Source: Leptospirales bacterium (GTDB lineage: Bacteria; Spirochaetota; Leptospiria; Turneriellales; JAOUFE01). From it: a stretch of DNA of 31,461 bases. The notes beneath the pieces are model-generated. The model was not told the DNA's origin and did not search any database. It saw nothing but the letters and a program-made list of their open reading frames with translations. Every line of letters begins with the position of its first letter. Positions within the stretch are counted from its first letter, which is position 1. Positions 2 to 31,461 of the stretch are shown here, piece by piece. Location of the stretch: positions 1 through 31,461 of the forward strand of contig JBEQLE010000049.1 of the NCBI GenBank assembly GCA_040326155.1, read 5' to 3'. Made by a program: the position numbers and the translations under genes.

Positions 2-444
2 ATGAATCGTGGTACCGGTTCTTTTAATAATTTTCAGGTGAAACTGAGCTGTGCCCCGGCGGCCGATTTTACGATGAACTCGGTTGTAAACAGTTTGCCA
101 AATGGTTTTACACTGCATTCACCAGCGCCGAATCCCCATACTTTTGCACTTGCCGACTGGGCCAAACCTGTTGATATTATAAACGAAATAACTTCTGATC
201 TGGACGGAGCCTACTCTATAACGTTAACTCCTTCAGATGTAAGTTACCCGTCAGAAACTGTCTATTTTGAAGATTCTCCGATGAAACGAGTTACTATCAC
301 TACCACAGGCGTTCTTGCTGCCGGTGAATCTTATGAAATACAAAACTTCACCGATAAAAAAGAGATCGCCTCTTTAGGAAGTTCCATCTGGTGGGCGGTA
401 AATGGCGACCCTTATGCTTTTGAAATTTCCAGGCAGCCAGCGGG
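2..444 (+). repeat. Paralogous direct repeat, copy 1 (matches ~5992-6440)
   Basis: Visual alignment at offset ~5990. Long identical stretches (e.g. aatggttttacactgcattcaccagcgcc) with mostly synonymous differences; similarity decays near 444/6440. Confidence 0.9.
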
Positions 445-3400: not shown

Positions 3401-4582
3401 AGTGAAATTCAGGCTCTGGCCGGAACCGATTTAATCAATTACCGTTTTCAATATGCAGGAGCAGATAAAGTAGGCCCCACCGCGGCGTGTGCCGGCGGTG
3501 ATCAGTCTACCGGAATTGGTCCATATACCTTTAATTTACCAGCCGCCGATGACATTTTGATTAGCGTAAATACGAACCTTCAAAGGGGTACAGCAGGCGG
3601 TGTTAGTAACAACCTGGAACTGCGTCTTTATATTGACGGTAGTAAACAGCATACGTTTTCTTATTACCGTTACTGGGGTAACACGACTTCTATGAGTACG
3701 TCTTTTGTAGTCCCTGCAATGCCACTTGGTGCGCATACGCTGGAATTGAAATACTGCGGCGACGGAACCAATAATCCCGTAATAATCGGGGCATATCCGA
3801 CCACAATTACAGCAACCGGTTTAAATAGCAGTCCGTACTTCCTGGCAAGAAATGGGTATAATCTACCCGTTGGAACTACTGCTTTGACATCCAATGTTTT
3901 TGCGTCCATTCAAGACGGGGCTAATCCCATGCAGGCAATTTATACGGCCTCAGAGAACATTTTATTGTGGCAAAACTTTTCTTTTGGCGGATTGGTGACT
4001 ACTTCAGCAAACTTCAAGCTGTCTCCGTCAACTACGGAAGACCTTATTTTCAGTACGGATGGCGGCGCGCCCATCAGTTTATTTACGTATGAACCCGTTG
4101 CCAATGGCGTAACGTATACAACCACGGCAAATTATCTGGTACCGATAGCATCAAGTATAGAAACAAAGTCGATTTATGACAATACGCTAAACCTACTGGC
4201 TTTCAAAGAACCGCCCGCCGGAAATTTTGGCAAAACACTCACTACGCCAGTTTCGACTACTTCTTTAACATACGTTCCTTTGACCAATATAAACATAACG
4301 AATAGCAAAACCTCACGTTATTTAATTTCATTTAGCGCTCTGTGGGCATATGGTTCGGCCCCGGGTCGCGGATGTGATTTTGCGTTACTAATAAATTCAA
4401 ATGAAATCACTACCTCGCTACTGCATTCGTCCAATACTTCTTTGACACCAACATCGGACATTATAACGGTAGAAAGTATTGATGCCGGTACAATCCCTGT
4501 AGAAATACAATATAAACAAAGTAGTACCAGCGGTACCTGTACAGTGCAAAGAGCTGTTTTTACAGTTATTCCTCTAGATTAA
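2..4582 (+). CDS. Giant surface protein, 5'-truncated by the window: conserved N-terminal region, NHL-type beta-propeller, 3 LamG/ConA-like domains, C-terminal beta-sandwich region
   Basis: 1526-aa ORF. It has NHL-like repeats (IYFSDSGNNRV, LYVANYGDNRI, LYIAETGNDRIRKI) and three LamG-like units (GLVGYWPL..DVRIYKRAL, GLLSHYRFD..DVRIYNNVL, GLVAHYDFN..DVRVYNRAL). The first ~145 aa match aa ~300-445 of the downstream paralog, so the ATG at 2 is internal and the gene starts upstream of the window. Confidence 0.85.
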   Translation: MNRGTGSFNNFQVKLSCAPAADFTMNSVVNSLPNGFTLHSPAPNPHTFALADWAKPVDIINEITSDLDGAYSITLTPSDVSYPSETVYFEDSPMKRVTITTTGVLAAGESYEIQNFTDKKEIASLGSSIWWAVNGDPYAFEISRQPAGQICAIAEVPFGTTSTVMALTVNCVAGYATSQSVNPVPESVLDYRMYQGKVTTVAGSVFTMGFTVHANTLYYSNGANFYSLPTGGGAPTTLITGGLSNVTHVVTDGTNIYFSDSGNNRVVKYNIGGVIADTFAMGTAFGTNFPSGLALDINRQILYVSIRGVGEQRIRRIDLLSGTMLADLSHADINDPSAIVLLNDKLYVANYGDNRIIEITNPHGGTLSTLVIAGVDHGIAPGTAGTFKDGSSLSAHFSQPFGITTDGNDLYIAETGNDRIRKINMRTDIVSTIAGDGNQANTDGTGVAASFNSPTGIAFDGRVMYVSSPGGIRKVTDNGLVGYWPLGSAQPGVAGNANDYNSDGATSLTGTWVGPESYGAGRNNESSGAGLFNVSKYVSTKDITIGNNTPFAISAWINPTNLDVNRGILGASNFEFLFRVGLDGHLQFQNWIISGATKYISKSSAGMIKINTWTHVAYVYRGAGHGGGRVYINGHDATYTHWEENIGAPIDRAENVLIGKGYNLSEFVGSIADVRIYKRALNEGEINELAQDADETLVGNSYNKSATGLLSHYRFDNANIGSNGLDDDTSGVQDDEIYDSGPLSHRLTNVGLSTASIGKDGENNGAYSYNGSTQYLKNISSNGLPEGDNPRTLCAWINPASYPTVGSNSVPAGYGFAGTNPDKEFGLALNSTGQIWHWTGSAPSIITPTPIPLNTWTHMCMDYDGGTNGTTRLYQNGKLVSSGNRTLSTNANEPLTVGARMDGALNFNGKVDDVRIYNNVLTADQIRQLGVQVPNGLVAHYDFNGDTKDVSGFGNDLIVGATSPTLSLDRFGQSSSYYFDSSDYFRTDAVDTTTLPLPTGSAARTQCAWTKVLTGQTGLKIISQWGGGGSRMFTQLRFDASTEKFEFATNPVSVSAPMKQSKGFWHHVCAVYDGGTSLKLYVNGADVDSASTGTILSTPNNTQLFVGSAGSNVGNRWKGDLDDVRVYNRALAQSEIQALAGTDLINYRFQYAGADKVGPTAACAGGDQSTGIGPYTFNLPAADDILISVNTNLQRGTAGGVSNNLELRLYIDGSKQHTFSYYRYWGNTTSMSTSFVVPAMPLGAHTLELKYCGDGTNNPVIIGAYPTTITATGLNSSPYFLARNGYNLPVGTTALTSNVFASIQDGANPMQAIYTASENILLWQNFSFGGLVTTSANFKLSPSTTEDLIFSTDGGAPISLFTYEPVANGVTYTTTANYLVPIASSIETKSIYDNTLNLLAFKEPPAGNFGKTLTTPVSTTSLTYVPLTNINITNSKTSRYLISFSALWAYGSAPGRGCDFALLINSNEITTSLLHSSNTSLTPTSDIITVESIDAGTIPVEIQYKQSSTSGTCTVQRAVFTVIPLD

Positions 4583-5003: not shown

Positions 5004-5148
5004 CCAGGTCGGCTGCAACCAGGGGCCTGGCCCCTTTTAATTCATAAAATAGATTGTTAATTTCATTGACAACATACAAGATATTAGATTTTCTGTGCAT
5101 ACATCATCCTCTACTATTACACGGATCAAAATGAGCCACATAAAACAG

Positions 5149-8100
5149 ATGAAATTTATACGAACACTTTGGTTTTGTATTCTACTCTCCGGTATGCAGT
5201 GTAGTGCTGCAAACATGATGAAGACTATATTCAAAGGCGATGGTTCCCTTATATTCAGTGAAACAGAACTGCACATTACAGAGGGTGCACTTGCTGGAAA
5301 TTTCAATATAACGCTTGCGGCAAAACCCACCCACGATGTCTCCGTTTCCCTGGCGGTTTCAGACGATTCTGAAATTATTATAGCGCCTGAGAATATAACT
5401 TTTTCTACAGATGATTATAATATTCCCCGAGTTGTCATTGTCTATGGCCTCGCCGATTGTACAACAGACGGTGATCAAAATGTCACAATTACGACCACAG
5501 AGGTAACCAGCAAAGACAGACGATTTCGTTCATCAGAGAATTCGTATCTACTCGTAAATGAAGTGGCTGTAACGGTTCGAGATAACGCTCTGAACGTTCC
5601 AGAACTGTTTTTATTGTCAGATAAAACCACCCTGGAAACTTCGGAGAGTGGTGGAAATGACAAGTTCCTGGTTTCTCTCAGTTGTGCTCCGGTTGCCAAT
5701 GTAACGGTGAACCTGGCCTCATCGAATATCGCCGAAGGCATTTTAGATACTGCTACGGTAAATCTTGATTCCAGCAATTACGCTACCGGCCAACTTGTAA
5801 CGGTAACTGGTCAGTCCGATTGTACGTTAGAGGCAGACCAAGCCTATTCGGTGAGCGCCAGTATCGCTTTGGCCGGTTTAAGTGACCCGGTGAATGACGT
5901 TGTTTTTGACGGCCTTGCAGACTCTATCGGTGTGACCAACCAGAATATCGAAATGACCAAGCAGTTGATGATTTCATCTGCAGGTACTCAAGTGAATCGT
6001 GGTAGCGGCTCTTTTAATAATTTTCAGGCGAAACTGAGCTGTGCCCCGGTGGCCGATTTTACGATGAACGCGGTTGTAAATAGTCTGCCTAATGGTTTTA
6101 CACTGCATTCACCAGCGCCAAACCCCCATACTTTTTTGCTGGCCGACTGGGCGAAACCTGTTGATATCATAAACGAAGTAACTTCTGATTTTGATGGTGC
6201 ATACTCTATAACGTTGACTCCGGCGGATGTAAGTTACCCGGCAGAAACGGTTTATTTTGTTGATTCTCCGACGAAACGAGTTACGATCACCACAGCTGGT
6301 TTAACTCCAGGTGAGTCTTATGAAATTCAGAATTTTACAGATAAAAAAGAGATCGCCTCTCTTGGTAGTTCCATTTGGTGGGCTGTGAACGGCGACCCGT
6401 ATTCTTTTAAAATATCAAGGCAACCGAATGGGCAGGTTTGTTCTATTATTACAGCGAATGTACCTGATCTGCCTCACGGTACGCTGACTGGTATTATGGA
6501 CCTGAATGTGGATTGCAAAACCGGGTACCAAGTGAACAACCAGGTATTATTGAGTGATCCAAGCGCTAAAGATAATTTTCCTGTTGGCATGTTATATACG
6601 ACCATGTTGAGTTCCACTACATATACGAACCCTACCGGCATGGCCATTGTTGGTAATACCATGTATGTGGTAGATTGGCCGGGTAATTTGTACTCAGTTC
6701 CGCTGGCCGGAGGCGCACCGTCCCCGATTGCGATTTCCGGAGGGGCTCTAAATAATCCGAGTGGTCTCGTGACGGACGGTCAATATGTCTATGTTTCCGA
6801 TCGTGGTAATCATCGAATTGTAAAAATTCTCGTGAATACGACACCTACCGCCCCAAGGGTCACCGGTGAATTAACCGTTGTGGCTGGAACCGGAGTATCC
6901 GGAACACCCGTAGATACAGCCGATCCGTTGCTTGCGCGGTTTAACCAGCCTGAAGGTTTAGTTTTAAAAGATGACTATCTATATGTGGCCGACCGCCTGA
7001 ATCATTCCATTCAAAGAGTTCACCTGCCCACGGGCGCAGTAATTTTATTTGCCGACATGGGTACGACTTGTGAGCAACCGGTTGGCCTTGCTTCGAATGA
7101 TACCTATTTGTTCGCCGCTTGTTTTGGCTCAAACAACATAGCAAAAGTCCATTTGACATCACAAGCCGTCAGTAATGTTGCCGGACTTCCCGGCGTGGGG
7201 AATTCCGGCGTTGTAGACGGGGTCGGCAATTCGGCTCGTATGACCAGCCCCACAGGTTTGGTCTATATGGGCAACACGCTTGTTTTTTCCGAGTGGAACA
7301 GCGGGTACCTTCGTCGAATTAATATTTCTAATGTGAATTCCCCGGTGGTAAAAACCGCATTGGGTCATGGTGTCGTTGCAGCCACGGTAGCGCCCGCCGA
7401 TTTTTCCCTGGTGCAGTTTAATAACGCTCAAATGCTTGCAACGGACGGTGAATCGATCTATTACTCGGACTTTAACAATAACAACATTTTGAAAATGACA
7501 CAGGGGCTCGCCGCACACTACAAATTGGCGGGTGATTTCAATGATTCCAGTGGGAATGGAAATGATGGTAATTTGATCGGTACACCAACAACAGGTGTGG
7601 ATGATCCCCATGGTGGTACGAACGCAGTGAGTGGATTTTCACTTGCTGATTATATTAAAGTAACAGACTCCCCTTCTTTGAACCCCGCTTCCCTATCGGT
7701 GTCCGTTTGGCTTAACCCGACCAGTTTGCCTGGACCTGGGGTAATCAATGTTATTCTAGGGAATAATTCGACCATACCCGGTTATTTTCTAGAGCTATAC
7801 AATGATGGAGCAAATCAACGTATATATTGGCGAGCAGGGGGTACGCCATTTTCTGTGCCGATTATCTTGCCAACGAATCAATATTCGCATATAAGCATTA
7901 CACATAATGGGCCAAGTCAAACAGCCACTCTTTATATAAACGGGATATTCATTACTTCAGCAGGATCGAGAGCAGTGGTTCCCCAGGGGCTTAATTATGA
8001 CTTACTGATTGGTCGAAGAAGCGATGGTAGTCCCGCCTTCGATGGGGCTATCTCCGACCTGCGTATATACAACCGCGCCTTAACCGCTACAGAAGTGAAT

Positions 8101-10083
8101 CGTCTATCAACTCGCATTCCCGACGGCTTGGTTGCGTATTACCCGTTTGATGATGCGGCGTCAGGAACGGCGGTGGACTATTCGTCCTTTGTAAATAATG
8201 GGACCCTCGGGGGTGGCATGAGCGCGGCAGCGAATAGAACGTATGACCGCTTCGGTAAAGCTAATTCGGCTTATCGCTTTAACGGTGTCGGGAATTTCAT
8301 AACGGCGCGCGATAGTTTTTTACCGGTCGGCACTGCCCCCAGAACAATTTGCCACTGGGTAAGGGCCAGGGCATTAAATTCAGGTACAACTGTCGGGTAT
8401 GGTACCGGATCGGCGCCGAACGGTCGGGCCAATGGTTTTCAATTTACCAGTGCTGATGTTGGTTATACCACTTTTTCCTCTGACGTGTTTTTTGGCAAAC
8501 CCGTTCCATTATTCGAATGGTCGCACATTTGTGGAACTTATGATGGTACAAAAGCCGCCATCTATATGGACGGGAAGTTGGTTGTAGATCCCGTTGCCCC
8601 ACCCGTAGCGTGGGACACAACGTTGTCGGGTTTATTGCATATTGGGGAGAATGCAAACGGAGGCTCCGACTACTTTTCCGGCGACATCGACGAAATTCGC
8701 ATTTATGACCGTGTACTCTCCGATAAAGAGATTCTCTTTCTGGCAGACAAACCGTTTAACCCCACTGGCGGTCTGGTAGCTTGGTACCCTCTGGGTGGCG
8801 ATACAAAAGATTACAGCGGAAATGGAAACAATGGAACATTGAATGGAACCAGTATTCCCGCAACCGGACCGCACGGAGATACGGAGGGGGCGGCATATTT
8901 TGATGGAACCACCAATTATGTGGATGCCGGAGCAAATCCGGAGGCGGATGTACCCCATAGCATGTCGATTAGCGTCTGGATAAAACCCGATCAACTACCC
9001 GCACTTAATGGTATTATGGGTATTTTGGGTAAAAGTGATGGCACCGGCGGATATTTTCTAGAGTTATTCAAAGACGATGGCTTAGGGAGCACCTATTCCC
9101 CGGATTCTTTCCCCGTGCCAGGTACGAGGGTGTTTTATTCAGGTAACGCCGGAACAAATGCTTTAGCGCCGAGAGTAAATTTTCCGATCAATCAGTACAG
9201 TCACATTGCCGTGGTGCATGAGGGAACGAATGTAGAAATATTTGTCAATGGCAAAAGACGCGCCCTGACTACTACCGGTGGCAACATTGCGGTAAACACA
9301 GCTACGGCACCACTCTACCTTGGTCGCCGCCACGACGGCTCACCTTTTAAAGGCGCCATCTCTGACGTTCGTATTTATAATCGGCCACTCAGCGCTCTCG
9401 AAATTGCCAGACTCGCCACCCAGGTACCCGATTCACTGGCGGTCTATTATCCGTTGGACGAAGTTAATACCGTAGGTGCCCAAAAATTCACCCCCGATTT
9501 AGGTATTCATAACATTGACGGCCTGGTACTTGGCCCTGGTGCTGGTGTTCTGGCTGTTGACCGACATGTATTTTCCTCCAGCTCCATGAGATTTGACGGC
9601 ATTGATGATGTCGTGGATGCCCCAACGACGAATTATCTACCCATAGGAAATTCTCCTCGAACCTTTTGCGGGTGGTATAAGGCCGCAGGTACTCTTTCAA
9701 CAAATTTTATTGCTTCTTATGGCACGAATGGTGTAAATATGACTATGGGTTTAATTATTTACCCAACTGTCTATAATTTTTGGACATTGGACTACGCGAC
9801 TAATGTACAATTGGACACAAACCCCATTCCGGTTACTCTCGGTAAGTGGACAAATCTGTGCGGAACGTTTGATGGCAGTAATATGAAACTTTATCTCAAT
9901 GGCACTTGGGTTGCAACTAGATCGGGGGTAACATTGGCTACGGGCAATGGCCCTTTGAGAATAGGTCAGAGAATACCCACTCCTCCATGGTTTCCATTTA
10001 ATGGTGACCTGGATGACATTCGAGTATACAGCCGGGCTCTGAGCGCAGGCGAACTTCTCGCCATTTCCGGTATTTACCCCTAG
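5149..10083 (+). CDS. Giant putative lipoprotein: signal peptide, Calx-beta/Ig-like repeats, NHL beta-propeller, 4 LamG/ConA-like domains
   Basis: Within ORF 5095..10083. The ATG at 5149 gives MKFIRTLWFCILLSGMQC, a signal peptide with a lipobox-like Cys. Two repeats like 'TEG..F.ITL...P..DV.V.L..SD..E' follow, then NHL repeats and four LamG units ending in D.RIY.R.L. Confidence 0.85.
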   Translation: MKFIRTLWFCILLSGMQCSAANMMKTIFKGDGSLIFSETELHITEGALAGNFNITLAAKPTHDVSVSLAVSDDSEIIIAPENITFSTDDYNIPRVVIVYGLADCTTDGDQNVTITTTEVTSKDRRFRSSENSYLLVNEVAVTVRDNALNVPELFLLSDKTTLETSESGGNDKFLVSLSCAPVANVTVNLASSNIAEGILDTATVNLDSSNYATGQLVTVTGQSDCTLEADQAYSVSASIALAGLSDPVNDVVFDGLADSIGVTNQNIEMTKQLMISSAGTQVNRGSGSFNNFQAKLSCAPVADFTMNAVVNSLPNGFTLHSPAPNPHTFLLADWAKPVDIINEVTSDFDGAYSITLTPADVSYPAETVYFVDSPTKRVTITTAGLTPGESYEIQNFTDKKEIASLGSSIWWAVNGDPYSFKISRQPNGQVCSIITANVPDLPHGTLTGIMDLNVDCKTGYQVNNQVLLSDPSAKDNFPVGMLYTTMLSSTTYTNPTGMAIVGNTMYVVDWPGNLYSVPLAGGAPSPIAISGGALNNPSGLVTDGQYVYVSDRGNHRIVKILVNTTPTAPRVTGELTVVAGTGVSGTPVDTADPLLARFNQPEGLVLKDDYLYVADRLNHSIQRVHLPTGAVILFADMGTTCEQPVGLASNDTYLFAACFGSNNIAKVHLTSQAVSNVAGLPGVGNSGVVDGVGNSARMTSPTGLVYMGNTLVFSEWNSGYLRRINISNVNSPVVKTALGHGVVAATVAPADFSLVQFNNAQMLATDGESIYYSDFNNNNILKMTQGLAAHYKLAGDFNDSSGNGNDGNLIGTPTTGVDDPHGGTNAVSGFSLADYIKVTDSPSLNPASLSVSVWLNPTSLPGPGVINVILGNNSTIPGYFLELYNDGANQRIYWRAGGTPFSVPIILPTNQYSHISITHNGPSQTATLYINGIFITSAGSRAVVPQGLNYDLLIGRRSDGSPAFDGAISDLRIYNRALTATEVNRLSTRIPDGLVAYYPFDDAASGTAVDYSSFVNNGTLGGGMSAAANRTYDRFGKANSAYRFNGVGNFITARDSFLPVGTAPRTICHWVRARALNSGTTVGYGTGSAPNGRANGFQFTSADVGYTTFSSDVFFGKPVPLFEWSHICGTYDGTKAAIYMDGKLVVDPVAPPVAWDTTLSGLLHIGENANGGSDYFSGDIDEIRIYDRVLSDKEILFLADKPFNPTGGLVAWYPLGGDTKDYSGNGNNGTLNGTSIPATGPHGDTEGAAYFDGTTNYVDAGANPEADVPHSMSISVWIKPDQLPALNGIMGILGKSDGTGGYFLELFKDDGLGSTYSPDSFPVPGTRVFYSGNAGTNALAPRVNFPINQYSHIAVVHEGTNVEIFVNGKRRALTTTGGNIAVNTATAPLYLGRRHDGSPFKGAISDVRIYNRPLSALEIARLATQVPDSLAVYYPLDEVNTVGAQKFTPDLGIHNIDGLVLGPGAGVLAVDRHVFSSSSMRFDGIDDVVDAPTTNYLPIGNSPRTFCGWYKAAGTLSTNFIASYGTNGVNMTMGLIIYPTVYNFWTLDYATNVQLDTNPIPVTLGKWTNLCGTFDGSNMKLYLNGTWVATRSGVTLATGNGPLRIGQRIPTPPWFPFNGDLDDIRVYSRALSAGELLAISGIYP
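5992..6440 (+). repeat. Paralogous direct repeat, copy 2 (matches ~2-444)
   Basis: Same alignment as copy 1. Confidence 0.9.
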
Positions 10084-23687: not shown

Positions 23688-24101
23688 TTGAAAGGCCAAA
23701 TCGTTTCAAAAGATAACACAGGTAAGCTTAAGATTGCTTTAATGCAGGAAGCTGACGACAACTGTAAAGCATGCGGAATGGGTGATTCCTGCGGTCTTAC
23801 TAAACTCTCGTACCTTGAGGTGGATAATGGACCGGAGGTAGAAAATTTGAATATCGATGATTATGTTGATGTAGAAATACCTTCAAAACTATTCTTTTGG
23901 TTAACGAGCTCGGTTTATATTTTACCTCTTTTTACTATGCTTTTCGGCGCTATTATAGCATCCTTTGTATTTCCTCTCGGCGGGGACAAAGTGGCTATTG
24001 TCGGTGGGTTTTCCGGTTTTGCTGTAGGAATAATTTTTAACGTTTTTTTAAATAAATACTTATCACTCCAACGGATTGTACAAATCAGGAGATTGGCATG
24101 A
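23688..24101 (+). CDS. rseC: RseC/MucC family protein
   Basis: CKACGMGDSC, VYILPL and two TM segments. GGAGG RBS before a TTG start; first gene of the rnf operon. Confidence 0.85.
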   Translation: MKGQIVSKDNTGKLKIALMQEADDNCKACGMGDSCGLTKLSYLEVDNGPEVENLNIDDYVDVEIPSKLFFWLTSSVYILPLFTMLFGAIIASFVFPLGGDKVAIVGGFSGFAVGIIFNVFLNKYLSLQRIVQIRRLA

Positions 24102-24961
24102 ATGAATTAGTAAATGGATGGCAAGAAATTGCAATTACAGCGGCAAGTCTCGCGGGTATCGCTTTTCTCGCCGGGGTAGCTCTTTATTATGCGGCGAAAG
24201 TTTTTGCCGTTGAAGAAGACCCCATGGTCGAGGCAATCGAAGATATTCTTCCAGGCGCAAACTGCGGAGCCTGTGGCGTACCTGGTTGTTTCAGCTTTGC
24301 CGAAAAAGTCGCAAAAACCAAAGATATGAGCCTCTACTGTCCGGTCGGTGGCCAGGAACTTTCTGACGATATGGCCGACTTGATGGGCCTCGAAGCCGTG
24401 GAACAAGATAAATTGGTCGCCCGTGTTATGTGCCAGGGTGGAAATTTCAGTACTCGTACCGGGCAATACCAGGGAATTAAGTCCTGCTCAGCAGTTTCAA
24501 CTATTCACCAGTATGATCTTACCTGCCCCTATGGGTGTTTTGGTTATGGTGATTGCGTTACTTCCTGCGATTTTGACGCTATTCATATAATAAACGGTGT
24601 TGCCCTCGTTGATGAAGAAAAATGCACCGCATGCGATGCCTGTGTAATTGACTGTCCCATCAACATTATAGAGATGCAACCTTACGATAAGACGGTTTTT
24701 ATTGCATGTAAATCTATTGACTCCGGCGGCGCCGTAAAAAAATATTGCGAAGTTGGATGTACCGGTTGTAAAAAATGTGTAAAAGCCTGCGAGCATGAAG
24801 CTATCCATTTCGATAGTTTTCTTGCAACAATAATTCCCGATAAATGTACAAATTGTAACGATTGTGTAGATAAATGCGATACCCATACTATAGTCATTTC
24901 TAAAGATGGAATTGCGCAAATTAAGGATAAGTTGGTAGAGAATGCTGAAGTCAACGTTTAA
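24098..24961 (+). CDS. rnfB: Rnf complex subunit B
   Basis: N-terminal TM, LPGANCGACGVPGC and multiple 4Fe-4S motifs. Confidence 0.95.
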   Translation: MNELVNGWQEIAITAASLAGIAFLAGVALYYAAKVFAVEEDPMVEAIEDILPGANCGACGVPGCFSFAEKVAKTKDMSLYCPVGGQELSDDMADLMGLEAVEQDKLVARVMCQGGNFSTRTGQYQGIKSCSAVSTIHQYDLTCPYGCFGYGDCVTSCDFDAIHIINGVALVDEEKCTACDACVIDCPINIIEMQPYDKTVFIACKSIDSGGAVKKYCEVGCTGCKKCVKACEHEAIHFDSFLATIIPDKCTNCNDCVDKCDTHTIVISKDGIAQIKDKLVENAEVNV

Positions 24962-26306
24962 TCTGGGTGGTATTCATCCGCCGGAGAATAAAAAATATTC
25001 CGAAGGCAAAGAGATCCGGAATATTTCCGTCCCCGAACAGGTGTCCATAAACCTTAACCAACACATTGGAAGAAAAGCCAAGGCCGTAGTCGAGAAAAAG
25101 CAAGAAGTTTCCGTAGGCGATATTTTAGGCGAAGCCGATGGTTTTATTTCTGCATTGGTTCACTCCCCCGTAAGCGGGACCGTCAAAAAAATTGAACAAA
25201 AAATGACCGCCGCAGGAATGGTTGAATCGACTCTTACAATTGACGTCGATGTCGAAAAAACAGCTGAAGATTCTAAAAAATACGAAATGAAAAAAGAGGT
25301 CGATATCGACCAGACTTCTAAAGAAGATCTTTTAAAAATGATACAAGATGCCGGTATCGTTGGACAAGGCGGAGCGACATTCCCTATGCATGTCAAACTT
25401 TCTCCCCCACCCGATAAGCAAGTTGATATTTTAATTCTAAACGGCGCCGAGTGTGAGCCCTATTTAACCGCCGACCACCAGTTGATGCTTGAAAAAACAG
25501 ATGAAATACTGCTGGGAGTGCGCGTAATACAAAAGGTTTCTAATGTAAAACAAGTACATATTGGAATCGAGGAAAATAAACCCGATGCTATAAAACTTTT
25601 TACAGAAAGGATATCTGCGACAGGAATTCAAAACTGTCAGGTCTCCGCTTTGAAAACCAAATATCCGCAAGGCGGCGAAAAACAACTGATTAACGCCATC
25701 ACCGGGCGCGAAGTACCTTCGGGTAAACTTCCGTTTGATGTAGGCGTTCTTGTACAAAACGTTGGAACCATTTTTGCCGTTTACGAAGCCGTCTTTTATG
25801 GAAAACCCGTAATCGACCGGGTGACCACAATTACCGGTTTTGTAAAAAAACCGGGGAATTTTCGAATTCGCATGGGTACCGCTTTTAGTCATGCCATTGA
25901 AGATGGCGCTGGAGGGTTTATTGACGAAGAACGAGTTCGTTCCGTAGTAAACGGCGGACCAATGATGGGTAAATCCATACGGCAGCTTGACGTCTCGGTT
26001 ATGAAAGGAACAAGCGGTATAGTCGCTTTATCGGACCACGAATTTGTATTTTCAGAAGAGGGTCCCTGTATTCGGTGTGGTCGCTGTATCGATATTTGCC
26101 CCATGGGTCTTATGCCGGTCAATCTCGCTGACGATACCATCCTTAAGAACGGAACCGAACTGCTCGACTCTATGGATTGCATCGAATGTGGAAGTTGTTC
26201 ATATGTTTGCCCCACCAGTCGCAAGCTGGTACACTGGATAAAAATAGGAAAAGGTGTTTACCGCACCTGGAAAGCAAAAGAAGAGAGTTATAAAACAGAC
26301 CAATGA
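24942..26306 (+). CDS. rnfC: Rnf complex subunit C
   Basis: GGIHPPENK, AGIVGQGGATFP, NGAECEPYLTADH, YPQGGEKQLI, GGPMMG and two CxxCxxCxxxCP motifs. Confidence 0.97.
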   Translation: MLKSTFNLGGIHPPENKKYSEGKEIRNISVPEQVSINLNQHIGRKAKAVVEKKQEVSVGDILGEADGFISALVHSPVSGTVKKIEQKMTAAGMVESTLTIDVDVEKTAEDSKKYEMKKEVDIDQTSKEDLLKMIQDAGIVGQGGATFPMHVKLSPPPDKQVDILILNGAECEPYLTADHQLMLEKTDEILLGVRVIQKVSNVKQVHIGIEENKPDAIKLFTERISATGIQNCQVSALKTKYPQGGEKQLINAITGREVPSGKLPFDVGVLVQNVGTIFAVYEAVFYGKPVIDRVTTITGFVKKPGNFRIRMGTAFSHAIEDGAGGFIDEERVRSVVNGGPMMGKSIRQLDVSVMKGTSGIVALSDHEFVFSEEGPCIRCGRCIDICPMGLMPVNLADDTILKNGTELLDSMDCIECGSCSYVCPTSRKLVHWIKIGKGVYRTWKAKEESYKTDQ

Positions 26307-27274
26307 GAGAATTAATACTAACATCGGCCCCGCATGTTCGGAGCGGTTCGCAATTAAAAAACATCATGTATGATGTTGCCTTGGCTCTACTGCCTGCCAC
26401 GGTCTGGAGCGTCTACAAATTTGGCATGCCCGCTTTAAACGTAATACTCTTTGCCCTTGCATCGGGTCTTGCCTTTGAGGCGCTTTCGCTGTATATGCAA
26501 CGAAAGAAAAATATACTCTCCATTACATTTGACGGAAGCGCCATAGTCACTGCTTTGTTGCTGGCTCTGAACCTGCCTTCCTCATCACCGGCATGGCTGG
26601 TTATTACTGGTAGTTTTGTAGCGATTGTAATTGCCAAGCATACATTTGGCGGTTTGGGGTATAATATTTTTAACCCCGCTCTGGTAGCCCGGGTTTTTCT
26701 ACTGATTTCATTTCCCGTACAAATGACAAAATGGCTGGCGCCAGGCAGTTTCGGCGTAGACGCAGAGACCATTGCAACGCCACTCGACCTCATTAAAACA
26801 GAGGGCGCCGCCGGAATTGAAAAAATCACCTCTGACTATACAACGCTCGACTTTTTTCTCGGAAACACCGGGGGAAGTATGGGTGAAGTTTCCGCTGCGA
26901 TGCTTTTACTTGGGGCGTTATACTTAATGGTTCGTAAGGTTATTACATGGGAAGTTCCCATTACTATATTGGCATCGCTGTTTGCCTTTACCGGTATTTT
27001 TTACCTTGTAAACGATGCAGAATATGCCAGTCCTGTATTGCACCTTTTATCGGGTGGGGCTATTCTAGGAGCCTTTTTCATGGCGACCGACATGGTGACC
27101 TCCCCCATGACCAGAAAAGGGATGATCATTTTCGGAGTCTCCATCGGAATTATCACCGGTTTAATTCGTCTGTTTGGCGGTTATCCCGAGGGAATTTCTT
27201 TTGCAATTATTATCATGAACGCCGTTGTACCTATTATCGATAAGTACACCAGAGTGAAAAAATTTGGAACATAA
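26303..27274 (+). CDS. rnfD: Rnf complex subunit D
   Basis: FGGLGYNIFNPAL, ATPL flavinylation site, GSMGEVS, FFMATDMVTSP, GGYPEG. Confidence 0.97.
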   Translation: MRELILTSAPHVRSGSQLKNIMYDVALALLPATVWSVYKFGMPALNVILFALASGLAFEALSLYMQRKKNILSITFDGSAIVTALLLALNLPSSSPAWLVITGSFVAIVIAKHTFGGLGYNIFNPALVARVFLLISFPVQMTKWLAPGSFGVDAETIATPLDLIKTEGAAGIEKITSDYTTLDFFLGNTGGSMGEVSAAMLLLGALYLMVRKVITWEVPITILASLFAFTGIFYLVNDAEYASPVLHLLSGGAILGAFFMATDMVTSPMTRKGMIIFGVSIGIITGLIRLFGGYPEGISFAIIIMNAVVPIIDKYTRVKKFGT

Positions 27275-27283
27275 GAGAACAAT

Positions 27284-27883
27284 ATGGCTGCACAAAAAAA
27301 AGATGTTTTAATACTGGTACTCATTGCCACATTTTCAGGCCTGCTGTTAAGCGGGACGTATATACTAACTAAAAAAGATATTGCCAAGGCTAAAATAGAG
27401 AAACAAAAAAAGGCTCTTAAAGCGGTAATGCCCTTTTTAGGAAATAACCCCTACGAGAAAATCGTATACAAATATCAGGAAAATACCATAAATATTTTCA
27501 CCGTCACGGAAAATGAAAATTTCCTGGGGGCTGCGCTGGAACTCAAAACTAAAAAAGGGTATAGCGGTTGGATTGTATTTTACCTGGGTGTTGACGCCGA
27601 TGGAAAAGTTACAGGGATGTATATTACTGAATCGAAAGAGACGCCGGGTCTTGGCGATAAAGCCAAAGATAAAAAATGGTGGGGTCAATTTGTCGGCAAA
27701 TCGAAAGAAGATTTTATTTTTAAAGTGGAAAAAGACAAAGGTGATGTTGTTTCAATTACAGCATCCACAATTACTTCGCGGGCGATAACAAATGCATCCG
27801 ATCAGGGTTTAGATCTATATAAAGATTTTCTCGCAAACGGCGCAAAAACAAACGTAGTGGAGGCGCAAGATGGTAAAAAATAA
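27284..27883 (+). CDS. rnfG: Rnf complex subunit G
   Basis: N-terminal TM, GYSG.I, ETPGLG and the ITASTITSRA FMN-binding segment. Confidence 0.95.
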   Translation: MAAQKKDVLILVLIATFSGLLLSGTYILTKKDIAKAKIEKQKKALKAVMPFLGNNPYEKIVYKYQENTINIFTVTENENFLGAALELKTKKGYSGWIVFYLGVDADGKVTGMYITESKETPGLGDKAKDKKWWGQFVGKSKEDFIFKVEKDKGDVVSITASTITSRAITNASDQGLDLYKDFLANGAKTNVVEAQDGKK

Positions 27884-28535
27884 CGAAAACGATAACGAAA
27901 AAACAAAAGCAAAAACAAAAGACAGAGATCCGCTACCGAAAATATACGCAGACGGGTTATGGAACAGTAACCCGGTTTTAATAATGCTTTTGGGGCTTTG
28001 TCCAGCGCTGGCTGTAACCAGTTCGGGCTTAAACGGTCTGGCCATGGGCGTCGCAACTATTTTCGTACTTGTAATGGCAAACCTGGCAGTCTCCATACTA
28101 CGCGGAATTATTCCCGCAAAAATGAGAATTCCATCTTTCATTGTTATTATTGCAACTTTTGTTACCGTGATCGACTTACTCATGGAAGCCTACGCCAACG
28201 ACCTGCACGGACAACTTGGTATCTTTATTCCGTTGATTGTGGTAAACTGTATTATTCTAGGGCGCGCCGAAGCTTTTGCCTACAAAAAATCGGTCTGGAA
28301 ATCTTTTAACGATGGTTTAGCCATGGGTGTCGGGTTTACATTAGCCCTGGTTGCTATGGGTGTCATTCGGGAAATTTTTGGGAATAATTCCGTTTTCGGA
28401 TACAATATTTTCGGTGAAGATTTTAATAATGTTTTATTTATGATATTACCCCCGGGGGCTTTCTTAACGCTCGGGTATTTACTTGCTCTGAGCCACTATA
28501 TTAACAACAAAAGGGCCGAACGTAAAAAGGCGTAA
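27870..28535 (+). CDS. rnfE: Rnf complex subunit E
   Basis: NPVLIMLLGLCPALAVT, LGIFIPLIVVNCIILGRAEAFA, LPPGAF. Confidence 0.97.
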   Translation: MVKNNENDNEKTKAKTKDRDPLPKIYADGLWNSNPVLIMLLGLCPALAVTSSGLNGLAMGVATIFVLVMANLAVSILRGIIPAKMRIPSFIVIIATFVTVIDLLMEAYANDLHGQLGIFIPLIVVNCIILGRAEAFAYKKSVWKSFNDGLAMGVGFTLALVAMGVIREIFGNNSVFGYNIFGEDFNNVLFMILPPGAFLTLGYLLALSHYINNKRAERKKA

Positions 28536-28545
28536 AGGATAGATT

Positions 28546-29136
28546 ATGGATAGTTTTATATATTTAATATTAATTTCAATTAACGCTATATTTGTCAGTA
28601 ATATCGTTTTTGCTCAATTTCTTGGCATCTGCCCTTACATGGGAGTTTCCAAAAAAATAGATACCGCGTTAGGTATGGGTATGGCGGTCGTTTTTGTAAT
28701 GACTTTATCAAACGCGATAACCTATATGATTCAGATCTTTATTTTAGAACCTTACGACATTGGCTTTTTAAAAACAATCTCTTTTATTCTCGTAATCGCC
28801 TCACTGGTTCAGTTTGTAGAAATCTTTATGAAAAAGAAGATGAACGTTCTTTACCAGTCACTGGGTATTTACCTGCCGTTAATTACAACAAATTGCGCTA
28901 TTCTCGGCGTGGCCTTGCTGGCAATTCAAAACGAGTATAATTTTATTCAGTCCATCGTATTTTCCATTTCCAGCGGAATTGGTTTTATTTTAGCTCTGGT
29001 TCTGTTTGCGGGTATTCGCGAACGTCTTGAGTATGCCCAGATGCCGGCTGCTCTAAAAGGAACCCCCGTTGCGCTTGTTTCTGCTGCCATCATCTCCCTT
29101 GCTTTTATGGGTTTTTCCGGTCTTGTAAAGCTGTAA
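28546..29136 (+). CDS. rnfA: Rnf complex subunit A
   Basis: [39 protein letters not shown]. Confidence 0.97.
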
Positions 29137-29215
29137 GGATTATAGAGCCGACGGATGTTTCTTTTGTGAAGCTACAAAAATACAACGAAGCGAGCCTCAC
29201 AAAAAGGATTTTTTT

Positions 29216-30181
29216 GTGAAAATGAAGAAGCCAAAAATAATTCCCCTGCTCATAATAACAGGGCTAATTATATATTCACTGTTTTTCTATAAAACGCCCA
29301 CCCAGGGATGTACGTTTTATTCCATGGGCGGTATTAAAACCGAAATTAAAATATTTAATGAAAACCGATCGGTGGCGCGCGACGCCTGCGAGCTTGTAAA
29401 AGAACGGTATGAAGAACTCGAAAGCATGTTCAGCACCTACCGGGCAGGCAGTCTGGTTAGCAAAATAAATCGCGAAGCTTATAAACAACCGATAAAACTT
29501 TCAGACGAGGTTTATTATCTAATATCCAGATCACTTGCAATTAGCCTGGCTACGGAGGGGTATTTTGACATCGCTGTAAAACCACTTCTCGATATGTGGG
29601 CGCAGGCCGTAAAAGATAAGACACTTCCCTCCAGTTCAAAAATCAATCGCACAAATAAAATATCAAGATCAAAATATATTCAACTGGATGAAAACGCCCG
29701 GACAGTCTATTTTCTTAAACCCGGCATGCAAATTGATCTGGGTGCAATAGCCAAAGGGTATATGGCCGACGAGGCTAAAGAAATTCTGATCTCGGCTGGC
29801 ATTGAGCGGGGACTCATAAATTCAGGCGGCGACATCGTCGCTTTCGATGTTTCCGAAAATCCAGTGCCTTTTAAAATTGCCGTTTACAATCCGCATACCG
29901 GTAAAAGCGACGAGGTTATTTCCATAACGAACGGATCGATTGTCACATCGGGTAATTACAGCCGCTCATATTCCATTCAAGGTAAAGAATACTCACATAT
30001 ATTAAACCCTCATACGGGAACTCCTCGCGGGGGGTGCAAAAGTATAACTCTCAAGGCTTCGACGGGTTTGCTTGCCGACGCACTTGCAACAGCGTTATGC
30101 GCCGATCCAAATTATGTGATGGGTAAAAACTTACCGAAATTACCGGCCGGCGTAGAAGTTGTTTCCTACTTTAAAGATTAA
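29216..30181 (+). CDS. apbE: FAD:protein FMN transferase ApbE
   Basis: IDLGAIAKGYMAD, INSGGDI, VTSGNY, YSHILNPHTG, ADALATAL. The start is the GTG at 29216 or the ATG at 29222. Confidence 0.95.
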   Translation: MKMKKPKIIPLLIITGLIIYSLFFYKTPTQGCTFYSMGGIKTEIKIFNENRSVARDACELVKERYEELESMFSTYRAGSLVSKINREAYKQPIKLSDEVYYLISRSLAISLATEGYFDIAVKPLLDMWAQAVKDKTLPSSSKINRTNKISRSKYIQLDENARTVYFLKPGMQIDLGAIAKGYMADEAKEILISAGIERGLINSGGDIVAFDVSENPVPFKIAVYNPHTGKSDEVISITNGSIVTSGNYSRSYSIQGKEYSHILNPHTGTPRGGCKSITLKASTGLLADALATALCADPNYVMGKNLPKLPAGVEVVSYFKD

Positions 30182-30185
30182 ACTT

Positions 30186-31025
30186 TTATAGAGTTGCCGA
30201 GGTGTCTTCATAGGGTTCTTCTTTTGCGCCAAATTGTGTAATCAATTTTTTTGCAAAAGCAATATCGAGCGCATGCCCCCCTTTCGAACCTAAAAGATGA
30301 CCTAGAATCGGTCTTCCCACAAGCGAAAGATCGCCAATCATATCGAGAATTTTATGGTACAATGCCTCGTGAGTAAAACGGGGTTCGTTCAAAGTTCCCT
30401 CATTCGTAAAAACAAGAACGTTCTCCGTAGAGCCGCCCTGGGCAAGCCCCTTAGCGCGCAAATACTCTACCTCTTTTATAAAACCAAAAGTCCGAGCCCG
30501 CGAAATATGGTTTGTAAGAAACTCTTCGTCATAGGGAAAATCAATTTCAAGATTTTTCAGCATGGGATGGTCAAAATTAATACTATAGGATATACGAGAT
30601 TTTTCAGCTGGCAGACCCACAATATACCGATCACCGTCAGTAACCATAATCGGCTTTGTTATTTTAAGAGGCCGAATTTCCGTCGAAAACTCATGACATT
30701 CACAAGTCTGAAAAAATTCAATAAAAGGTTTAGCCGAACCATCCATAATAGGAATTTCAGTCGCCCCTTGAATTTCAATAATTAAATCGGTAATACCCAG
30801 TACATAAATAGCATACATCAAATGTTCAATCGTCTGTACATAGAAGTTGCCTTCTCCAAGAGTAACAGCAAGCGAAGTATCAATGACGTTTTCCACCGTA
30901 GCTGAAACATAACTTTTATTTTCCTTCGCGCGATTGTTATAAAAACGAATTCCAAAACCATCCTCAGCAGGATGAAAAATCATTTTCACTTTCTCACCCG
31001 AGTGAAGACCAATGCCTTCGAGCAT
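30186..31025 (-). CDS. lpxC: UDP-3-O-acyl-N-acetylglucosamine deacetylase; natural 5' end apparently missing
   Basis: GIGLHSG, TIEHL, EIPIMDGSA, ISRARTFGF, HKILDMIGDL, GGH. The frame stays open upstream of 31025 (NKSVQEFYFRKTIKESG-M) with the conserved RKT-type strand but no ATG/GTG/TTG. Confidence 0.95.
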   Translation of the reverse strand: MLEGIGLHSGEKVKMIFHPAEDGFGIRFYNNRAKENKSYVSATVENVIDTSLAVTLGEGNFYVQTIEHLMYAIYVLGITDLIIEIQGATEIPIMDGSAKPFIEFFQTCECHEFSTEIRPLKITKPIMVTDGDRYIVGLPAEKSRISYSINFDHPMLKNLEIDFPYDEEFLTNHISRARTFGFIKEVEYLRAKGLAQGGSTENVLVFTNEGTLNEPRFTHEALYHKILDMIGDLSLVGRPILGHLLGSKGGHALDIAFAKKLITQFGAKEEPYEDTSATL

Positions 31026-31077
31026 TCCACTCTCTTTAATCGTTTTGCGAAAATAAAATTCTTGAACCGATTTATTC

Positions 31078-31461
31078 TTATTTTTCTTTAATTTCTTCCC
31101 TTGCTCCGCAGGCAGTGCATTTTAAATAAATTTTTTTACTCTCTCTCTGAATTTGAGTATCTGGTTTATTACAAATATTACATAAAACATATAATTTCGT
31201 ATAGTTCTCGATTAGTCGATTCAAAATCACTTCTTTAAATTGAGATTTCATGAATAATTGTTGTCCTCTTTGCTCACCGAAGGTTCCTGCGTTCTTTAAG
31301 AAGAAACCCAAGAAATGATTCTTTTCCCGATTGAGCACGTTGATAATCTGGTTAAAATTAGTTATATATGTGTTCTTACTTTCTATACGGATCTTGACCG
31401 TGGGGATTACAAATCTGTTTTGCTGTATTGCATTATCTGGAATCTTCTCGTATGCTTTTTC
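31078..31461 (-). CDS. eif2b: Archaeal-type translation initiation factor 2 subunit beta (aIF2-beta), 5'-truncated by the window end
   Basis: The frame is open to the window edge: EKAYEKIPDNAIQQNRFVIPTVKIRIESKNTYITNFNQIINVLNREKNHFLGFFLKNAGTFG...YVLCNICNKPDTQI...LKCTACGAR. This is the eIF2B/eIF5 domain with a C4 zinc ribbon, in the short archaeal form. Confidence 0.92.
   Translation of the reverse strand, partial: EKAYEKIPDNAIQQNRFVIPTVKIRIESKNTYITNFNQIINVLNREKNHFLGFFLKNAGTFGEQRGQQLFMKSQFKEVILNRLIENYTKLYVLCNICNKPDTQIQRESKKIYLKCTACGAREEIKEK

What the first reader, a model, noticed from the sequence alone, without database searches (positions are those of the whole stretch)
31026..31461. Archaeal aIF2-beta joined to bacterial lpxC: chimeric junction or inter-domain transfer
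Seen: a clear a/eIF2-beta ORF (RF.IP, TYITNF, LNRE..H, YVLCxxCxKPDT, LKCxACGA) stops at 31078. GC drops there (15/60 at 31141-31200 versus 27/60 at 30961-31020). The lpxC frame runs upstream through its conserved RKT strand into the aIF2-beta 3' end with no canonical start codon, so its 5' end seems replaced near 31070-31085, an A/T low-complexity stretch. Established: a/eIF2 is archaeal/eukaryotic and lpxC is bacterial. Inference: most likely a metagenomic misassembly with an AT-rich archaeon (it resembles Lokiarchaeia sequences from memory, unverified). If real, it would be a remarkable transfer.
Basis: partly seen in the sequence, partly recalled or inferred. Interest (0 to 1): 0.8.

Follow-up and report, generated by a model that had tools for sequence, protein, structure and literature searches.

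The report
Archaeal tip misjoined to bacterial contig
The last 390 bases of this bacterial contig are a stray piece of a Lokiarchaeon's translation-factor gene that the assembler glued onto the bacterial lpxC gene at a shared 21-letter word, so it is an assembly artefact and not a gene transfer between domains.

Summary
The window is a whole contig (C115) of a spirochaete-type MAG. It ends with 127 codons of an aIF2-beta gene (31461..31078, minus strand), directly followed by lpxC, which has no ATG/GTG/TTG upstream of its conserved F-R-K-T strand.

The aIF2-beta piece is Asgard archaeal. It is 72-95% identical in protein to the 120 listed proteins, and every taxon name among them is an Asgard lineage. 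At DNA level it matches marine-sediment contigs from four studies. All four leave the window at 31071 and run into the usual Asgard downstream gene.

The decisive result is that another contig of the same MAG, C86, ends with lpxC's native 5' flank. It carries a GTG start and the first four codons, points outward, and dovetails in frame with C115 at 31091. This matches the N-terminus of a 90%-identical LpxC on an independent metagenome contig.

Bacterial sequence therefore reaches up to 31091 and archaeal sequence reaches down to 31071. The two overlap in a 21-nt A-rich word, which is the signature of a wrong turn in a k-mer graph.

PF01873 passes its cut-off in 0 of 40 relatives, and no other Asgard DNA from this locus is in the MAG.

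Verdict: assembly chimera, not a real feature. Source reads could not be checked.

The parts
31092..31461 (-). Archaeal-only part of the tip. It holds codons 1-123 of the 127-codon fragment of an Asgard (Lokiarchaeal-type) aIF2-beta gene. The contig end removes about 10 N-terminal codons.
   Evidence: PF01873 at E 2.8e-28. It is 72-95% identical to the 120 listed proteins, most of them 137 aa, and every taxon name among them is an Asgard lineage. Contigs of 4 runs from 4 studies lie on 31071-31461 only. All 25 genome loci found are archaeal MAGs.
31071..31091 (.). The 21-nt A/T-rich junction word (plus strand TTTATTCTTATTTTTCTTTAA). In the archaeon it is the last 3 and 2/3 codons of aIF2-beta, the TAA stop (31080..31078) and 7 nt of spacer. 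In the bacterium it is lpxC codons 5-11 (L-K-K-N-K-N-K).
   Evidence: The archaeal contigs match down to 31071 and then diverge, all into one shared loose end. The bacterial relative L014 aligns up to 31088. C86's last four letters equal 31091..31088 on the minus strand, and the letters before them differ. That all 21 nt are native to the bacterium is inferred, because C86 itself covers only 4 of them.
30186..31091 (-). Bacterial lpxC (UDP-3-O-acyl-GlcNAc deacetylase) from its codon 5 to its stop. The first four codons (GTG start, L, S, L) are not in the window. They lie at the end of contig C86.
   Evidence: PF03331 at E 2.5e-85 over the extended frame. It is 83.2% identical in DNA to L014 over 895 nt. 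The N-terminal alignment lacks only the first four columns. The last 16 nt of C86 read GTGCTCAGCCTTTTAA.
29216..30181 (+). ApbE-family flavin transferase, convergent with lpxC. This is native bacterial context, and the relatives have the same arrangement.
   Evidence: PF02424 at E 1.3e-65. An ORF with the same conserved N-terminal motif lies next to lpxC's 3' end in L005 and L006; I did not run a family search on those two ORFs.

Best explanation
The junction is an assembly artefact.

The sample held a spirochaete-type bacterium (the MAG) and a Lokiarchaeal-type Asgard archaeon. By chance both genomes carry the same 21-nt A-rich word. In the archaeon it spans the end of aIF2-beta (…E-I-K-E-K, stop) plus 7 nt of spacer. 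In the bacterium it encodes codons 5-11 of lpxC (L-K-K-N-K-N-K).

In a k-mer graph such a word is one shared node with two ways in and two ways out. The assembler joined the archaeal way in (about 370 nt of aIF2-beta) to the bacterial way out (lpxC and the rest of C115). The true bacterial way in was left as the end of contig C86.

What is shown:
- the archaeal origin and its exact lower boundary
- the bacterial upper boundary
- the native lpxC start on C86, with its in-frame fit

What is inferred:
- that the 17 nt between the C86 end and 31070 are identical in the native bacterium
- that the error arose in silico and not from a chimeric library molecule

A dispersed repeat just upstream of lpxC, which sits at many contig ends in this MAG, probably made this spot hard to resolve.
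For: 1. Archaeal origin. 456 of 458 candidates match the fragment at E<=1e-3. The best 120 are 72-95% identical, and every taxon name among them is an Asgard lineage. All 25 confirmed genome loci are archaeal MAGs, 20 named as Asgard lineages and 5 as 'uncultured archaeon'.

2. Lower boundary. Contigs of 4 runs from 4 studies cover only 31071-31461. In all 4 a contig leaves the window at 31071 into one identical loose end. One contig (X1 record 1) has a single difference in 31071-31140, at 31131, so the 21-nt word is native to the archaeon. In 22 of 22 Asgard loci inspected (3 of the 25 were left out because the match stops before the C-terminus), aIF2-beta is followed within about 40 nt by a gene that begins …V-Y-L/I-K. 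The loose end encodes the same start.

3. Upper boundary. The closest independent lpxC is P0122, 90% identical in protein, on contig L014. It aligns to the window from 30194 to 31088 at 83.2% DNA identity. Its ORF starts with GTG and reads M-L-S-L-I-K-K-N-R-H-K-S-I-Q-K-F-Y-F-R-K-T.

4. Native start found. The last ~190 nt of contig C86 of the same MAG align to L014's lpxC 5' flank. Its last 60 nt are unique in the MAG. Its last 16 nt are a GTG start plus L-S-L and TTA A, pointing off the contig end, and they fit the lpxC frame of C115 at 31091. The window's translation from 31091 lacks only the first four alignment columns.

5. lpxC occurs once in the MAG.

6. PF01873 passes its cut-off in 0 of 40 relatives. 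Five Asgard loci of about 3.1-4.4 kb hit the MAG only at C115 31065-31461.

7. The foreign piece is 391 nt long and sits at a contig end.

8. Repeat A of L014 (2557-2900), just upstream of lpxC, has 25 hits in the MAG. Eleven lie within 300 nt of a contig end, although only 2.4% of the genome lies that close to an end.
Against: - No reads of the source sample were available. The best run holds 0.21 of the words, and all four runs laid cover only the archaeal part. Coverage and spanning read pairs are therefore untested.
- C86 overlaps the shared word by only 4 nt, so full 21-nt identity in the native bacterium is inferred. L014 matches 15 of 21 there by my own count.
- No word of 19 nt or more from 31001-31461 recurs elsewhere in the MAG, so the two contigs do not overlap by a full k-mer as neighbours in a graph often do.
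- The GC drop is only at the 5.4th percentile.
- Gene order upstream of the repeat is not shared between C86 and L014. The C86 link rests on about 190 nt plus the frame fit.
Confidence: 0.94

Rival explanations
1. The chimera was made in the tube and not in the computer. A library molecule joined archaeal and bacterial DNA, by PCR or amplification template switching at the A-rich microhomology or by ligation, and the assembler followed that molecule faithfully at a poorly covered contig end.
For: The foreign tip is 391 nt, about the size of one short-read library fragment. Template switching also happens at microhomology. C86 and C115 do not overlap by a full k-mer.
Against: One chimeric molecule rarely survives an assembler's coverage filters. 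The archaeal and bacterial boundaries enclose exactly 21 nt, which fits a shared graph node. That 21 is the smallest default k of common metagenome assemblers is recalled, not tested here. This reading is also an artefact, so the biological verdict does not change.
Confidence: 0.04
2. A real and very recent insertion of Lokiarchaeal DNA upstream of lpxC in part of the bacterial population, by illegitimate recombination at the microhomology. In this reading C86 is the unaltered allele, and lpxC in the variant is translated from a non-canonical start such as the in-frame CTG used for the public gene call.
For: The junction is in the deposited contig. The frame is open from a CTG and was called as a 309-aa protein, P0121. 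Microhomology is also what illegitimate recombination uses. Bacterium and archaeon would share a sediment habitat; the four runs laid are labelled marine-sediment, marine or sediment metagenomes.
Against: - The native 5' end is present in the same MAG and stops at the edge of the shared word.
- lpxC occurs once.
- The insertion would remove the start codon, the first four codons and the 5' flank (presumably with the promoter) of a gene that is conserved with this N-terminus in all 9 relatives inspected and in L014.
- No relative carries PF01873 over its cut-off: 0 of 40.
- The foreign piece ends with the contig, and no further archaeal neighbour genes are in the MAG.
- An aIF2-beta alone has no plausible role in a bacterium (established knowledge: it works in the archaeal/eukaryal aIF2/eIF2 heterotrimer).
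Confidence: 0.015
3. The gene is a native bacterial homologue of the IF2B/IF5 domain, inherited in this spirochaete lineage.
For: None beyond its presence on the contig.
Against: It is 72-95% identical in protein to the 120 listed proteins, whose taxon names are all Asgard, and near-identical in DNA to sediment contigs that carry the Asgard neighbour gene. It was found over the cut-off in 0 of 40 relatives.
Confidence: 0.005

Closest known systems
Inter-genome chimeric contig in a short-read metagenome assembly (wrong path through a shared k-mer in a de Bruijn graph)
   Same: - Two unrelated organisms are joined inside one contig at a short exact shared word.
- The foreign part is a short tip at a contig end.
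- The true continuation sits at the end of another contig of the same assembly.
- A dispersed repeat lies next to the spot.

A full-text search listed papers that discuss chimeric contigs and misassemblies in metagenomic de Bruijn assemblies, for example PMC9795473 and PMC8172020. I saw only the search listing and the starts of the abstracts.
   Different: Nothing unusual. The only notable detail is that the partners belong to different domains and that the join happens to keep an open frame. That frame led a gene caller to a 309-aa LpxC with a false N-terminus.
Asgard (Lokiarchaeal-type) aIF2 beta subunit, Pfam PF01873
   Same: It matches the domain over profile positions 6-117 of 117, has the C-terminal four-cysteine zinc-ribbon motifs, and is 72-95% identical to the mostly 137-aa proteins listed, whose taxon names are all Asgard.
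   Different: It lacks about 10 N-terminal residues because the contig ends. It also lacks its usual downstream neighbour, which is replaced by lpxC from 31070 on.
LpxC of the Leptospira-class spirochaete group (PF03331)
   Same: It has the full deacetylase domain and the 15-20-residue N-terminal extension before F-R-K-T seen in relatives, and it is convergent with an ApbE gene as in relatives.
   Different: In the window its first four codons and start are missing. They lie on C86.

Membership tests
a/eIF2-beta (PF01873, IF2B/IF5 domain) | Match to the family profile above the curated cut-off | tested here: met
   98.6 bits against a cut-off of 27, E 2.8e-28, profile positions 6-117 of 117. 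The whole-genome search gave the same result, 98.2 bits.
a/eIF2-beta (PF01873, IF2B/IF5 domain) | Archaeal (Asgard) and not bacterial affiliation of the sequence | tested here: met
   The best 120 proteins are 72-95% identical, and every taxon name among them is an Asgard lineage. All 25 genome loci are archaeal MAGs. The control genomes that match are 4 archaea.
LpxC (PF03331) | Match to the family profile above the curated cut-off | tested here: met
   280.4 bits from the ATG at 31025, and 286.6 bits with the upstream extension, which then covers profile positions 2-267 of 268.
LpxC (PF03331) | Complete gene with a start codon on this contig | tested here: not met
   There is no ATG, GTG or TTG upstream of F-R-K-T in the window. 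The GTG start and codons 2-4 are at the end of C86.
Assembly chimera between two genomes | Each side of the junction matches a different organism, and the boundaries enclose a short exact shared word | tested here: met
   The archaeal match ends at 31071. The bacterial match reaches 31088 by blastn and 31091 by the C86 end.
Assembly chimera between two genomes | The true continuation of the host sequence exists elsewhere in the same assembly, at a contig end, in the right orientation | tested here: met
   The C86 end aligns to the lpxC 5' flank of L014. It carries the start codon, is unique in the MAG, points outward and fits the frame.
Assembly chimera between two genomes | Coverage step and lack of spanning read pairs at the junction in the source reads | not testable with these tools
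   The one run search found no run with more than 0.21 of the words. The four runs laid hold only the archaeal part.
Inter-domain horizontal gene transfer | The same junction in independent assemblies or in related genomes | tested here: not met
   PF01873 passes its cut-off in 0 of 40 relatives. The closest independent lpxC contig, L014, has a bacterial upstream region. Contigs of 4 independent runs carry the archaeal neighbour gene and not lpxC.
Inter-domain horizontal gene transfer | Recipient genes at the insertion site remain functional or are plausibly disrupted | tested here: not met
   The junction would remove the start and 5' flank of the only lpxC copy, yet the intact 5' end exists on C86.

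The most novel reading that the evidence does not exclude
The junction is real in a subpopulation. A spirochaete took up Lokiarchaeal DNA, inserted it by microhomology recombination directly in front of lpxC, and now reads lpxC from a non-canonical start. That would be a snapshot of a very recent archaeon-to-bacterium transfer of a translation-factor gene.
Probability: 0.015. Interest if true: 0.6.

Novelty: not a real feature. Interest (0 to 1): 0.04.

Why it matters
Biologically it does not matter: there is no archaeal initiation factor in this bacterium. It has practical value in three ways.

- It shows how a 21-nt chance identity between two co-occurring genomes can fake an inter-domain transfer at a contig end.
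- It gives the likely true link between two contigs of the MAG: the C86 end joins C115 at 31091, reading on the minus strand.
- It flags a protein sequence in the searched collection with a false N-terminus: the 309-aa LpxC called from a CTG inside the archaeal piece.

If the junction were real, it would be a striking recent archaeon-to-bacterium transfer. The evidence is against that.

Tried and rejected
- Read-level test. The single run search found no run that holds the bacterial part. The four runs laid carry only relatives of the archaeal part, so coverage across the junction could not be examined. Their only pieces on the bacterial side were two short low-value matches in X4: 30913-30948, and 31052-31083 from an 89-nt contig.
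- Synteny. Genes upstream of lpxC in relatives G001, G003, G002, G009 and G007 were searched in the MAG. Their homologues lie inside other contigs (C66, C90, C171), not at ends facing lpxC. Upstream gene order is not conserved, and this route gave nothing.
- Shared k-mers. No word of 19 or 21 nt from 31001-31461 recurs in the MAG, so a plain overlap search did not find the partner contig. It was found only through the relative L014.
- Composition. GC of the tip is at the 5.4th percentile, too weak to decide anything alone.
- Earlier notes of this scan on the same genome concern an unrelated peptide gene cluster and did not bear on this finding.
- Alternative starts for lpxC inside the window were considered: the CTG near 31115 used by a public gene call, and ATT in R-K-T-I. 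They were dropped once the GTG start turned up on C86.

Full report
**What is there**

The window is the whole of contig C115 (31461 nt) of a MAG with 171 contigs, 4.26 Mb, 94.7% completeness and 1.7% contamination. The finding therefore sits at a contig end.

On the minus strand a frame open at its 5' end runs 31461..31081 (127 codons), with TAA at 31080..31078.

Fifty-two bases downstream is the first ATG (31025) of an lpxC gene (PF03331, E 2.1e-83). Its frame stays open upstream through F-R-K-T to a stop near 31121, without any ATG, GTG or TTG. Including that upstream part extends the Pfam match from profile position 10 back to position 2, so the real gene starts upstream of 31025.

The rest of the contig is plainly bacterial: an Rnf operon, ApbE, ribosomal protein L19, RNase HII, MgtE and others.

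**Origin of the aIF2-beta piece**

- Of 458 candidates, 456 match at E<=1e-3. The 120 listed are 72-95% identical, and most are 137 aa long. Every taxon name among them is an Asgard lineage (Promethearchaeota, Loki-, Thor-, Hod-, Hermod-, Heimdall-, Odinarchaeota); the other names give only the function or 'marine sediment metagenome'.
- In the species-representative genome collection, all 25 confirmed loci are archaeal MAGs. Twenty are named as Asgard lineages and 5 as 'uncultured archaeon'.
- PF01873 passes its cut-off in 0 of 40 relatives of the MAG. One relative (G003) has a 21-bit sub-threshold match inside a 690-aa frame, which I take as chance.

**Where the archaeal DNA ends**

No served run holds more than 0.21 of the sampled words of 30500-31461. 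I laid contigs from four runs of four studies on 30000-31461.

- They cover only 31071-31461, apart from two short low-value pieces in X4 (30913-30948 and 31052-31083).
- In each of the four runs a contig leaves the window at exactly 31071 and continues into one and the same loose end.
- One contig (X1 record 1) has a single difference in 31071-31140, at 31131. No difference below 31111 is listed for any run.

The loose end encodes the start M-K-V-Y-L. In 22 of 22 Asgard loci inspected, aIF2-beta is followed within about 40 nt by a gene whose product begins …V-Y-L/I-K-V/I-H. Three of the 25 loci were left out because their match stops short of the C-terminus. Natural archaeal DNA thus carries its own neighbour gene where the window carries lpxC.

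**Where the bacterial DNA ends**

lpxC has a match in 10 of 12 relatives searched. In the 9 loci I read, an in-frame ATG, GTG or TTG lies upstream of F-R-K/R-T, and in most it gives a 15-20-residue N-terminal extension.

The closest other protein is P0122, 90% identical. It lies on an independent metagenome contig, L014. There the full ORF starts with GTG and reads M-L-S-L-I-K-K-N-R-H-K-S-I-Q-K-F-Y-F-R-K-T-I-K. The window reads …L-K-K-N-K-N-K-S-V-Q-E-F-Y-F-R-K-T-I-K.

At DNA level, L014 2938-3832 aligns to the window 31088-30194 at 83.2%. Bacterial homology therefore runs past the archaeal boundary.

**The decisive result**

The same blastn run showed that the end of another contig of the MAG, C86 (52569 nt), resembles L014's lpxC upstream region.

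- The last ~190 nt of C86 align to L014 2754-2934. That stretch covers a copy of a dispersed repeat, the spacer, and the start of lpxC.
- The last 60 nt of C86 are unique in the MAG.
- Its last 16 nt, GTGCTCAGCCTTTTAA, read GTG-L-S-L and then TTA A, pointing off the contig end.
- On the minus strand of C115 the lpxC frame has TTA at 31091..31089 followed by AAG. The letters before TTAA differ between C86 and C115.

C86 therefore supplies exactly the four codons the window lacks, in frame. In an alignment with L014 and six other LpxC proteins, the window's translation from 31091 lacks only the first four columns. lpxC occurs once in the MAG.

**The junction**

Bacterial sequence reaches up to 31091 and archaeal sequence reaches down to 31071. 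The overlap is 21 nt: plus strand TTTATTCTTATTTTTCTTTAA at 31071-31091.

In the archaeon this is the end of aIF2-beta, its stop, and 7 nt of spacer. In the bacterium it encodes L-K-K-N-K-N-K, where L014 has I-K-K-N-R-H-K (15 of 21 nt identical by my count).

A short exact word shared by two genomes is one node in a k-mer graph. A wrong pairing of its arms gives exactly what is seen: archaeal way in, bacterial way out, and the true bacterial way in stranded as a contig end. That 21 is the smallest default k of widely used metagenome assemblers is my recollection and was not tested. That all 21 nt are native to the bacterium is inferred, since C86 covers only 4 of them.

**Supporting context**

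- Five Asgard loci of about 3.1-4.4 kb around aIF2-beta hit the MAG only at C115 31065-31461. No other archaeal DNA from that locus was binned.
- The stretch just upstream of lpxC in L014 (2557-2900) belongs to a dispersed repeat with 25 hits in the MAG. Eleven lie within 300 nt of a contig end, although only 2.4% of the genome lies that close to an end. C86 carries a copy 60 nt from its end. The spot is thus one where the assembly tends to break.

**What speaks against, or remains open**

- The source reads were not available, so depth and spanning pairs are untested.
- C86 and C115 share no word of 19 nt or more.
- The GC of the tip (0.320 against 0.396) is only at the 5.4th percentile.
- Gene order further upstream is not shared between C86 and L014, nor among relatives.
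- A chimeric library molecule could give the same contig. That would still be an artefact.
- A real insertion in part of the population cannot be formally excluded. It would need the loss of the start and 5' flank of the only lpxC copy, the survival of the intact allele in the same bin ending exactly at the shared word, and a contig break right after 391 nt of foreign DNA. I put it at about 1.5%.

**Comparison with what is known, and verdict**

Both genes are ordinary members of their families: an Asgard aIF2-beta and a spirochaete-group LpxC. Their adjacency is a chimeric contig of the kind discussed in the literature on metagenome assembly (search listing and abstract starts only).

Novelty: not a real feature. 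Interest: very low, apart from the practical notes below.
- C86 and C115 can probably be joined.
- The 309-aa LpxC (P0121), called from a CTG inside the archaeal piece, carries a false N-terminus.

Noticed in passing
L014:2557-2900 and L014:1337-1620; G000 contig C86:52370-52509 and many other G000 contigs: A dispersed repeat family with G-runs and C-runs lies upstream of lpxC in the relative contig L014. Part A has 25 blastn hits in the MAG, 11 of them within 300 nt of a contig end. Part B has 38 hits, 6 of them near ends. It seems to be a main cause of contig breaks in this MAG. Its nature (MITE-like or REP-like) was not studied.
   Followed up: partly
window 30186-31115 (minus strand); protein P0121: The protein collection holds this window's LpxC as a 309-aa protein that begins M-P-A-E-Q-G-K-K. 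It was called from an in-frame CTG inside the archaeal piece. Its first 8 or so residues are translated from archaeal DNA in another frame, so they are not LpxC. The next seven (L-K-K-N-K-N-K) come from the shared word and are probably genuine.
   Followed up: yes
L015-L039 (Asgard MAG loci), just downstream of aIF2-beta: In 22 of 22 loci inspected, aIF2-beta is followed within about 40 nt by a small gene that begins …V-Y-L/I-K-V/I-H…E-T-I-A-C-C. This is a tightly conserved gene pair in Asgard archaea. The family of the second gene was not identified here.
   Followed up: no
window 2-4582 and 5095-10083 (plus strand): Two very large proteins in tandem (1526 aa and 1662 aa), with NHL repeats and several Laminin_G_3 / pentaxin / sialidase-N type lectin domains. 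They are probably surface or secreted proteins. GC here (0.43-0.51) is higher than in the rest of the contig.
   Followed up: no
window 23688-30181 (plus strand): A complete Rnf-type operon: an RseC/MucC-like gene, RnfB-like, RnfC, RnfD, RnfG (FMN_bind), and two Rnf-Nqr membrane subunits, followed by an ApbE flavin transferase that is convergent with lpxC. An ORF with the same N-terminal motif lies next to lpxC in relatives G001 and G003.
   Followed up: partly
L012 (G012:C1:898012-898896): In one same-order relative the lpxC match lies in a 757-aa open frame with one TAG read through. lpxC there may directly follow, or be fused with, an upstream gene. This was not examined.
   Followed up: no
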